From Escherichia coli (GTDB taxonomy: Bacteria > Pseudomonadota > Gammaproteobacteria > Enterobacterales > Enterobacteriaceae), in the NCBI RefSeq assembly GCF_045037415.1, contig NZ_CP173438.1: a stretch of 64,000 nt of DNA. The stretch is one strand, 5' to 3'. This document shows positions 37,125 to 37,156 of the stretch, one piece after another. Each line of letters opens with the position of its first letter. The first letter of the stretch is position 1. Under the pieces are notes generated by a model, which did no database searches, was not told the DNA's origin, and worked only from the letters and a program-made list of their open reading frames with translations. The position numbers and the translations under genes were made by a program.

Positions 37125-37156
37125 AGAAATGCAAACAACTTCCATCAAAAAAGTGA
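37125..37156. promoter_or_regulatory. 32-nt conserved element, copy A (upstream of mppA); second copy at 40237-40268
   Basis: agaaatgcaaacaacttccatcaaaaaagtga versus gaaaatgcaaacaacttccggcaaaaaagtga: 28 of 32 identical by direct reading. Confidence 0.5.

What the first reader, a model, noticed from the sequence alone, without database searches (positions are those of the whole stretch)
37125..37156. 32-nt element shared by the upstream regions of mppA and mpaA (second copy at 40237-40268)
Two 32-nt stretches are 28/32 identical: agaaatgcaaacaacttccatcaaaaaagtga (about 56-87 nt upstream of the mppA start) and gaaaatgcaaacaacttccggcaaaaaagtga (about 95 nt upstream of the mpaA start). Similarity stops abruptly at both ends. 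Both genes act in murein peptide recycling (MppA binds murein tripeptide, MpaA cleaves gamma-D-Glu-Dap), and the LysR regulator pgrR lies between them, so a shared cis-regulatory site is plausible. The element is not palindromic and is in opposite orientation relative to the two genes, which is unusual for a simple operator.
Basis: seen in the sequence. Interest (0 to 1): 0.55.

Follow-up and report, generated by a model that had tools for sequence, protein, structure and literature searches.

The report
Duplicated promoter piece flanking inserted genes
The two look-alike stretches are one 30-base piece of the old shared control region between mppA and mpaA, which was copied when a foreign block of genes (pgrR, ycjY, an oxidoreductase) was inserted there; it is an insertion scar rather than a regulator's shared docking site.

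Summary
The repeat is real and not chance. Copy 1 is at 37125-37156. The duplicated unit is exactly 30 nt, AAATGCAAACAACTTCCGGCAAAAAAGTGA (37127-37156 and 40238-40267).

The copies are direct repeats bracketing the 3.08-kb block pgrR-ycjY-SDR. In 75 loci from other Enterobacteriaceae, mppA and mpaA are adjacent and divergent, 138-316 nt apart, and no locus shows a second copy. About 166-173 of 5,418 complete E. coli genomes also have this "empty site". The block is a truncated copy of a mobile cassette (LysR regulator, two hydrolases, SDR) found on Klebsiella plasmids and elsewhere.

So the element is a piece of the ancestral divergent control region, duplicated on insertion. That explains its opposite orientation relative to the two genes. 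Its left half holds the predicted, conserved mppA -35 hexamer.

At least 14 E. coli genomes carry an empty site with the copy-1-specific AT. These are precise deletions by recombination between the repeats.

There is no evidence for PgrR binding. It is not a dispersed repeat (two places per genome). How 30 bp came to be duplicated is unresolved. Interest is modest.

The parts
37127..37156 (+). It is next to mppA and carries GG->AT at 37144-37145.
   Evidence: AT was present in 12/12 sampled island-bearing E. coli alleles.
40238..40267 (+). It is next to mpaA and identical to the single-copy empty-site sequence.
37157..40237 (.). Inserted block of 3,081 nt, or 3,111 nt counting one repeat. It is absent from the 75 other-species loci and from about 166-173 E. 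coli genomes.
37406..38305 (-). pgrR (ycjZ), a LysR-family regulator. It is cargo of the inserted block.
38431..39363 (+). ycjY, an alpha/beta hydrolase. It is cargo of the inserted block.
39434..40072 (+). SDR/NmrA-like oxidoreductase, intact here and truncated to ymjC in K-12. It is cargo of the inserted block.
37157..37405 (.). Non-coding left arm of the block. It has no homology to the donor-type cassettes examined.
   Evidence: PGAP annotates a QueH fragment here in other strains, which could not be verified.
40073..40237 (.). Non-coding right arm of the block. Positions 40073-40143 are homologous to the SDR/adh_short spacer of donor-type cassettes; the rest is unique.
37130..37135 (-). 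Predicted mppA promoter -35 hexamer TTTGCA, inside copy 1.
   Evidence: Consensus scan. The block GAAATGCAAA is 0.9 or more conserved across 68 distinct spacers. No mapped start site was available.
37106..37111 (-). Predicted mppA promoter -10 hexamer AATAAT, 18 nt from the -35, inside the invariant block GTAATTATTTGTTTC.
40303..40331 (+). Tentative mpaA promoter: TTGATA, 17 nt, AACACT. It lies in the two conserved blocks GAAACnATTTGATTA and TTTTGCACAACACTG, 36 nt downstream of copy 2.
   Evidence: Conservation and constant spacing. It falls below the threshold of the consensus scan. This is inference.
35456..37069 (-). mppA, encoding the murein tripeptide binding protein.
40363..41091 (+). 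mpaA, encoding the murein tripeptide amidase.

Best explanation
The element is a 30-bp segment of the ancestral mppA<->mpaA divergent control region. A foreign gene block was inserted into that ~182-nt spacer in the lineage leading to most E. coli. The block was a LysR regulator (pgrR), two alpha/beta hydrolases and an SDR; here it is reduced to pgrR-ycjY-SDR. The insertion duplicated the 30 bp, leaving one copy at each junction as direct repeats. Each gene therefore kept the part of the old spacer on its own side plus the shared 30 bp.

Copy 1 still works as part of the mppA promoter: it contains the -35 hexamer and the 20 nt upstream of it. This is inferred. Copy 2 sits about 70-100 nt upstream of the probable mpaA start, and its present role is uncertain.

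Today the two copies also act as substrates for recombination that removes the block precisely and restores a single-copy spacer. This is shown by natural deletion alleles.

The biochemical route that produced a 30-bp duplication is not resolved. Candidates are a staggered break with fill-in, a single crossover with a circular DNA carrying the 30-mer, or a two-step illegitimate event.
For: 1. The copies are direct repeats 3,111 nt apart that bracket pgrR-ycjY-SDR.
2. In 75 loci from other Enterobacteriaceae, mppA and mpaA are adjacent and divergent with a 138-316 nt spacer. These include E. albertii, E. whittamii, Citrobacter, Enterobacter, Leclercia, Kluyvera and Raoultella. No locus shows a second match to the 17-nt core. 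Where the core is recognisable at up to 4 mismatches (in most of them), it lies at a fixed position about 54-80 nt upstream of mppA.
3. Empty-site sequences are colinear with the left flank of copy 1 and the right flank of copy 2. They contain the exact 30-mer once.
4. Between 166 and 173 of 5,418 complete E. coli genomes have the empty site.
5. The block is foreign cargo. It shows 79-80% nucleotide identity to LysR, hydrolase x2 and SDR cassettes on Klebsiella plasmids and in Raoultella and Salmonella, in unrelated contexts. The closest non-E. coli PgrR homologues listed, at 87-89% amino-acid identity, come from many genera. O157/B1-type E. coli keep the four-gene form.
6. Copy 1 carries AT in 12/12 sampled filled E. 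coli alleles and copy 2 carries GG. Fourteen genomes have an empty site with AT. Four of these are 100% identical to K-12 flanks joined at the repeat. Filled alleles carrying the matching right-flank SNP exist. These are therefore repeat-by-repeat deletion products.
7. A sigma-70-like site on the mppA strand puts TTTGCA inside copy 1, followed by 18 nt and AATAAT. Both hexamer blocks and their spacing are about 0.9 or more conserved across 68 distinct spacers.
Against: No mobility gene lies in or next to the block. The block has no terminal inverted repeats above chance. The 30-mer is absent from the donor-type cassettes, from phage records, from viral contigs and from true plasmids. The event that made the duplication therefore has no identified agent, and 30 bp is longer than the target duplications of known transposons (own knowledge).

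No mapped transcription start for mppA or mpaA could be found, so the promoter assignment rests on consensus and conservation only.

The polarity of the ~150 GG-type empty sites in E. coli is not decided. They could be ancestral absence, or deletion with the crossover in the left 17 nt.
Confidence: 0.85

Rival explanations
1. The two copies are independently maintained binding sites for one transcription factor (PgrR or another) that co-regulates mppA and mpaA, as in a regulon.
For: Both genes act on murein tripeptide. The element contains two sub-blocks conserved across genera, GAAATGCAAA..CTT and AAAnTTGA, so some protein other than RNA polymerase may bind it. Both copies are well kept within E. 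coli.
Against: There is a single copy in every genome that lacks the insert, and only two places per E. coli genome. The PgrR genomic-SELEX list does not include either spacer that holds a copy (PMC5934670). PgrR came in with the insert, and elsewhere its homologues sit next to hydrolase/SDR genes, never mpaA. The copies lie at different distances and in opposite orientations relative to the two starts. The element has no dyad symmetry.
Confidence: 0.1
2. The 30-mer is an attachment-type site. The block entered by site-specific recombination between the chromosomal 30-mer and an identical site on a circular element, catalysed in trans, and the element's left edge remains recombination-prone.
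For: The original duplication was a perfect 30 bp, a size typical of att cores and not of transposon target duplications (own knowledge). The AT/GG and C/T differences between the copies fit a single crossover in the right 11 nt. The K-12/E1V33 666-nt deletion ends 0-1 nt from the left edge of copy 2. An unrelated cdt islet sits in the same spacer in Salmonella arizonae and diarizonae.
Against: There is no integrase in or near the block. The 30-mer is absent from 2.9 million viral contigs, 50,697 phage records and true plasmids, and from the donor-type cassettes. The Salmonella junction lies at a different nucleotide, inside the element. Tyrosine-recombinase crossovers fall inside the core, not at its edge, so the K-12 deletion end point does not fit well (own knowledge).
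Confidence: 0.12
3. The similarity is chance, or the element is a member of a dispersed repeat family.
For: None beyond the A/T-rich composition.
Against: The best match is 29/32 against a maximum of 22/32 in shuffles. The core was expected 0.27 times and found twice, exactly. There are only two places per genome in 5,418 genomes. The copies match the single ancestral copy base for base.
Confidence: 0.01

Closest known systems
Direct repeats flanking inserted genomic islets (target-site duplication, or attL/attR-type repeats)
   Same: Two direct copies bracket a discrete foreign segment. Relatives have an empty site with one copy and colinear flanks. Recombination between the repeats removes the segment precisely.
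   Different: There is no integrase, transposase, terminal inverted repeats or tRNA target. At 30 bp the duplication is longer than known transposon target duplications. The duplicated target is promoter DNA.
Compact divergent (back-to-back) sigma-70 promoter regions with a shared upstream segment
   Same: In the ancestral ~182-nt spacer the element lies between the two predicted -35 hexamers and includes the mppA one. Blocks and spacing are conserved across genera.
   Different: In this window the shared segment has been split and duplicated, so each gene has its own copy. Start sites are predicted, not mapped.
LysR-type regulator operators (PgrR site in the ycjY/pgrR spacer; Shimada et al. 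2013, cited in PMC5934670 and PMC10505187)
   Same: It lies in the same locus and is adjacent to genes reported as PgrR-controlled.
   Different: The reported PgrR site is in the ycjY/ycjZ spacer, not at either copy. The element has no dyad and predates the arrival of PgrR at this locus.

Membership tests
Insertion-flanking direct repeat (target duplication / att-type) | Two copies in direct orientation immediately bracket a discrete DNA segment | tested here: met
   37127-37156 and 40238-40267 are on the same strand and enclose 37157-40237.
Insertion-flanking direct repeat (target duplication / att-type) | Related genomes show an empty site with one copy and colinear flanks | tested here: met
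   This holds for 75 loci of other Enterobacteriaceae and for 166-173 E. coli genomes.
Insertion-flanking direct repeat (target duplication / att-type) | The enclosed segment is of foreign origin | tested here: met
   The cassette is found at 79-80% nucleotide identity on Klebsiella plasmids and in Raoultella and Salmonella, in other contexts.
Insertion-flanking direct repeat (target duplication / att-type) | Excision through the repeats restores a single copy | tested here: met
   Fourteen empty-site genomes carry the copy-1-specific AT joined to the copy-2 flank.
Transposon or integrative element | Transposase or integrase gene, or terminal inverted repeats, or a matching attP on a mobile element | tested here: not met
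   The only genes in the block are pgrR, ycjY and the SDR gene. The ends show no inverted repeat above shuffles. The 30-mer is not found in viral contigs, phage records or true plasmids.
Regulon operator shared by co-regulated promoters | Independent occurrences at separate promoters, recognised by a defined factor | tested here: not met
   There is one copy wherever the insert is absent and two places per E. coli genome. The PgrR SELEX list lacks both spacers. Binding was not tested experimentally.
Dispersed intergenic repeats (REP/BIME, ERIC and similar) | Many copies per genome at unrelated loci, usually palindromic | tested here: not met
   There is a median of 2 and a maximum of 4 places per genome. 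The element is not palindromic (sequence). There is no Rfam match at either copy.
Sigma-70 promoter element (-35 hexamer plus upstream region) of mppA | -35 and -10 hexamers with 16-18 nt spacing at the right distance from a mapped start site | tested here: inconclusive
   TTTGCA, 18 nt, AATAAT was found and is conserved with fixed spacing. No start-site data were found.

The most novel reading that the evidence does not exclude
The 30-mer, and especially its left edge, is a preferred recombination site used more than once by an as yet unidentified site-specific or structure-directed process. On this reading the same nucleotide served as the island's right junction and as the end point of the K-12-type deletion. 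This would be a chromosomal 'landing pad' inside a promoter, with no linked recombinase.
Probability: 0.1. Interest if true: 0.6.

Novelty: new member of a known kind. Interest (0 to 1): 0.33.

Why it matters
It turns a puzzling 'shared motif' into a dated evolutionary event. pgrR and its hydrolase/SDR genes are a horizontally acquired cassette dropped into the mppA-mpaA control region of E. coli.

This has a practical consequence for how E. coli K-12 regulation is read. PgrR was named a peptidoglycan-recycling regulator, and mpaA is listed in the ycjY-ymjDC-mpaA operon. That link appears to be a by-product of where the cassette landed. It is absent from other enterobacteria and from the ~3% of E. 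coli that lack the block.

The repeats also make the block a naturally excisable unit. Island-bearing and island-free strains therefore form a ready-made comparison for testing what the insertion did to mppA and mpaA expression.

Tried and rejected
- **Chance or dispersed repeat.** Rejected.
- **RNA element.** Rfam found nothing at either copy at E<=1. The only hit is a sub-threshold RAGATH-10 match inside pgrR, taken as chance.
- **CRP site.** A CRP ChIP site is listed for ycjZ/mppA in ETEC (PMC4287617). It is not in this window even with 3 mismatches. By eye, the element's GTGA does not form a CRP dyad.
- **Sigma-54 reading of TTTTGCAC.** Rejected by eye because there is no GG at -24.
- **Transposon ends.** No inverted or direct repeat in the block's ends rises above shuffles.
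- **Donor with the 30-mer.** None was found among the Klebsiella, Raoultella or Salmonella cassettes, or in phage, viral or plasmid collections.
- **QueH relic in the left arm.** This is a PGAP annotation in other strains. NCBIfam gave no hit, so it is left unverified.
- **Start-site data for mppA and mpaA.** Literature and two supplement searches found none. The PgrR paper itself (PMID 23301696) is not held.
- **Complementary decay of the two copies.** The idea was that each copy loses the half far from its gene. Only scattered variants were seen in 12 alleles, which is not enough to claim it.

Full report
**Observation**

The window is E. coli. The 4-kb stretch 36700-40700 is 99.6% identical to strain UM146 and 100% identical to several other strains.

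The genes around the finding are:
- mppA (minus strand, 35456-37069)
- pgrR (minus, 37406-38305)
- ycjY (plus, 38431-39363)
- an intact SDR-family gene (plus, 39434-40072)
- mpaA (plus, 40363-41091)

These are followed by ycjG, tpx and tyrR.

Copy 1 is at 37125-37156. They are 28/32 identical, and the in-register match runs to 32/37.

The 17-nt core occurs exactly twice in the 64 kb, even when 3 mismatches are allowed (0.27 expected). The best 32-mer match between the two spacers is 29/32, against at most 22/32 in 60 shuffles.

**What the two copies bracket**

The copies are on the same strand, 3,111 nt apart. Together they enclose exactly pgrR, ycjY and the SDR gene.

I built a synthetic "empty site" by joining the left flank plus copy 1 to the right flank of copy 2. 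It matched end to end in 173 of 5,418 complete E. coli genomes, including IAI39, CE10 and ST648. There mppA and mpaA are separated by 182 nt and the element is present once. A first example had already appeared in strain MFDS1019527.

**Polarity**

A scan of one genome per species with MpaA returned 80 loci. In 75 of them mppA and mpaA are adjacent and divergent, with a spacer of 138-316 nt, mostly 182-190. These include E. albertii, E. whittamii and other Escherichia lineages, and Citrobacter, Enterobacter, Leclercia, Lelliottia, Kluyvera, Raoultella, Pluralibacter and Kosakonia.

No locus has a second match to the 17-nt core. In most, a single match (up to 4 mismatches) lies at a fixed position about 54-80 nt upstream of mppA. 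In the more diverged spacers only the conserved sub-blocks remain recognisable in the alignment. Only "Escherichia sp. E1V33" (L005) shares the pgrR-ycjY insert.

The single-copy arrangement is therefore ancestral for the family, and the E. coli arrangement is an insertion.

Base-by-base comparison shows that the duplicated unit is exactly 30 nt: AAATGCAAACAACTTCCGGCAAAAAAGTGA. The base before it and the base after it already differ between the copies. Copy 2 is identical to the empty-site sequence. Copy 1 differs by GG->AT.

**Origin of the insert**

The insert is 79-80% identical at the DNA level to a cassette on Klebsiella aerogenes, K. variicola and K. pneumoniae plasmids, and in Raoultella and Salmonella contigs. 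That cassette holds a LysR regulator, two alpha/beta hydrolases and an NmrA-like SDR. In Raoultella and Salmonella it continues with an adh_short gene and an old-yellow-enzyme gene. The neighbourhoods are unrelated and never include mpaA.

The closest non-E. coli PgrR homologues listed, at 87-89% amino-acid identity, come from Klebsiella, Raoultella, Enterobacter, Citrobacter, Salmonella, Kluyvera, Pantoea and Serratia.

O157- and B1-type E. coli still have the four-gene form. The window has lost the second hydrolase. K-12 has in addition lost most of the SDR gene.

Homology to the donor-type cassettes covers only 37405-40143. The non-coding arms 37157-37404 and 40144-40237 have no counterpart there, and the donors contain nothing like the 30-mer. 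The ends of the block have no inverted repeats above chance. There is no recombinase gene.

**What the element was before the insertion**

I aligned 68 distinct single-copy spacers. Five blocks are conserved at about 0.9 or more:
- GTAATTATTTGTTTC
- GAAATGCAAA..CTT
- AAAnTTGA
- GAAACnATTTGATTA
- TTTTGCACAACACTG

The spacing between them is constant, except in the variable middle of the spacer. The element covers the second and third blocks. Mean majority frequency is 0.80 inside the element and 0.69 outside. The two central positions (GG) are the least conserved, at 0.44.

On the mppA strand a consensus scan finds TTTGCA (37135-37130), 18 nt, AATAAT (37111-37106). The left half of the element is therefore the predicted -35 hexamer of a conserved mppA promoter. 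The right half lies at about -45 to -57.

For mpaA the conserved blocks give a weaker candidate: TTGATA, 17 nt, AACACT (40303-40331). This lies 36 nt downstream of copy 2 and falls below the scan's threshold. On that reading copy 2 lies at roughly -70 to -100.

These promoter assignments are inference. I found no mapped start sites.

In the ancestral spacer the element sat between two back-to-back promoters. An insertion there can leave both control regions whole only if the shared piece is duplicated. That may be why this particular event survived (inference).

**What the copies do now**

Copy 1 carries AT in all 12 island-bearing E. coli alleles I sampled across the identity range, and copy 2 carries GG in all of them. 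The E1V33 lineage has GG in both.

Among the 166 empty sites recovered with a 92-nt junction probe:
- 10 have AT with the right-flank variant A.
- 4 have AT with the right-flank variant G.
- The remaining rows shown have two mismatches to the probe. The two of these that were sequenced (2014C-3075 and ST648) have GG with A.

The four AT+G genomes (CP131_Sichuan, PM7, 2018-05-5CC, CUPF09) are 100% identical to K-12 flanks joined at the repeat. Island-bearing alleles with right-flank A exist.

The AT-type empty sites are therefore products of recombination between the two copies, with the crossover in the right 11 nt. They occur in several unrelated backgrounds. The GG-type empty sites, which include IAI39-like and ST648 strains, may be ancestral absence or deletions with the crossover in the left 17 nt. 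I could not decide this without a genome tree.

The element is not dispersed. A 39-nt probe finds a median of two places per genome in 5,418 genomes, all at this locus.

It is not an Rfam family.

The published genomic-SELEX list for PgrR names the ycjY/ycjZ spacer, and the regulon lists ycjY-ymjDC-mpaA. Neither spacer that holds a copy is listed (PMC5934670; see also PMC10505187). PgrR arrived with the insert, so it cannot explain conservation of the element in genera that lack it.

A CRP site reported for ycjZ/mppA in ETEC (PMC4287617) is not in this window.

The idea of a shared regulatory sequence is right in a historical sense: one sequence once served a divergent gene pair. It is not right as a regulon-type operator.

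**Unresolved**

The agent of the 30-bp duplication is unknown. The 30-mer is absent from 2.9 million viral contigs, from phage records and from true plasmids. This weakens an attP/attB model without excluding it.

The 666-nt deletion shared by K-12-type strains and E1V33 ends 0-1 nt from the left edge of copy 2. That is the same nucleotide as the island's right junction, and there is only a 3-4-nt imperfect microhomology. This is either a coincidence of roughly 1-2% or a hint of a fragile or preferred site.

Salmonella enterica subsp. arizonae and diarizonae have an unrelated cdtABC-like islet in the same spacer, but its junction is at a different position, inside the element.

**Verdict**

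This is a real feature with an ordinary explanation: an insertion scar made of promoter DNA. It has a useful corollary for how PgrR and the "ycjY-mpaA operon" of E. coli K-12 should be understood. Novelty: a new member of a known kind.

Noticed in passing
window 39570-40237; L083 3035-3203; L005 5740-5906: K-12-type E. coli and Escherichia sp. E1V33 share a 666-nt deletion. It runs from codon ~46 of the SDR gene to within 0-1 nt of the left edge of copy 2, the same nucleotide as the island's right junction. It creates the ymjC-like pseudogene that reads into the element.
   Followed up: partly
L024 2848-6000 (CdtB-like ORF 4021-4848); L025 2562-6000: Salmonella enterica subsp. arizonae and diarizonae carry an unrelated three-gene cdtA/B/C-like islet in the same mppA-mpaA spacer. 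The mppA-side conserved blocks are replaced, and in L025 the right junction lies inside the element.
   Followed up: partly
L001 1621-3066: In strain MFDS1019527 a prophage with a tyrosine integrase is inserted in mppA, leaving only 66 nt of its 5' end next to a single-copy spacer.
   Followed up: no
window 39363-39434; L088 2963-3894; L101-L103 2664-3596: O157/B1-type alleles keep a second alpha/beta hydrolase gene between ycjY and the SDR gene (frameshifted in O157). The window lacks it, so the block is decaying by different deletions in different lineages.
   Followed up: partly
window ~37217-37309 (minus strand); L088 834-908: PGAP annotates a 75-93 nt 'epoxyqueuosine reductase QueH' fragment in the block's left arm in several strains. 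This could be a relic of the donor's neighbouring gene. The translated stretch gave no NCBIfam hit.
   Followed up: partly
L087, L089-L094 (loci around PgrR homologues): PgrR homologues in other genera always sit beside the two hydrolases and the NmrA-like SDR (plus adh_short and an old-yellow-enzyme gene), never beside mpaA. The peptidoglycan-recycling role assigned to PgrR in K-12 may reflect only where the cassette landed.
   Followed up: partly
H1, H26; L106 523-1731: Single strains have IS insertions in the block: ISEc52, IS1A, and ISVsa5 interrupting pgrR.
   Followed up: no
window 37249-37265 (minus strand): There is a terminator-like hairpin, CCGAACGTAGTGTTCGG, about 140 nt downstream of the pgrR stop, inside the left arm.
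   Followed up: no
L057 2168-3052: In Enterobacteriaceae bacterium RIT691 a LysR gene 49% identical to PgrR lies about 1.1 kb beyond the 3' end of mppA. It may be unrelated.
   Followed up: no
window 37071-37405: The CRP ChIP-seq site reported for the ycjZ/mppA spacer of ETEC H10407 (CGTGAACCGGGTCACA, PMC4287617) is absent from the window even with 3 mismatches.
   Followed up: yes
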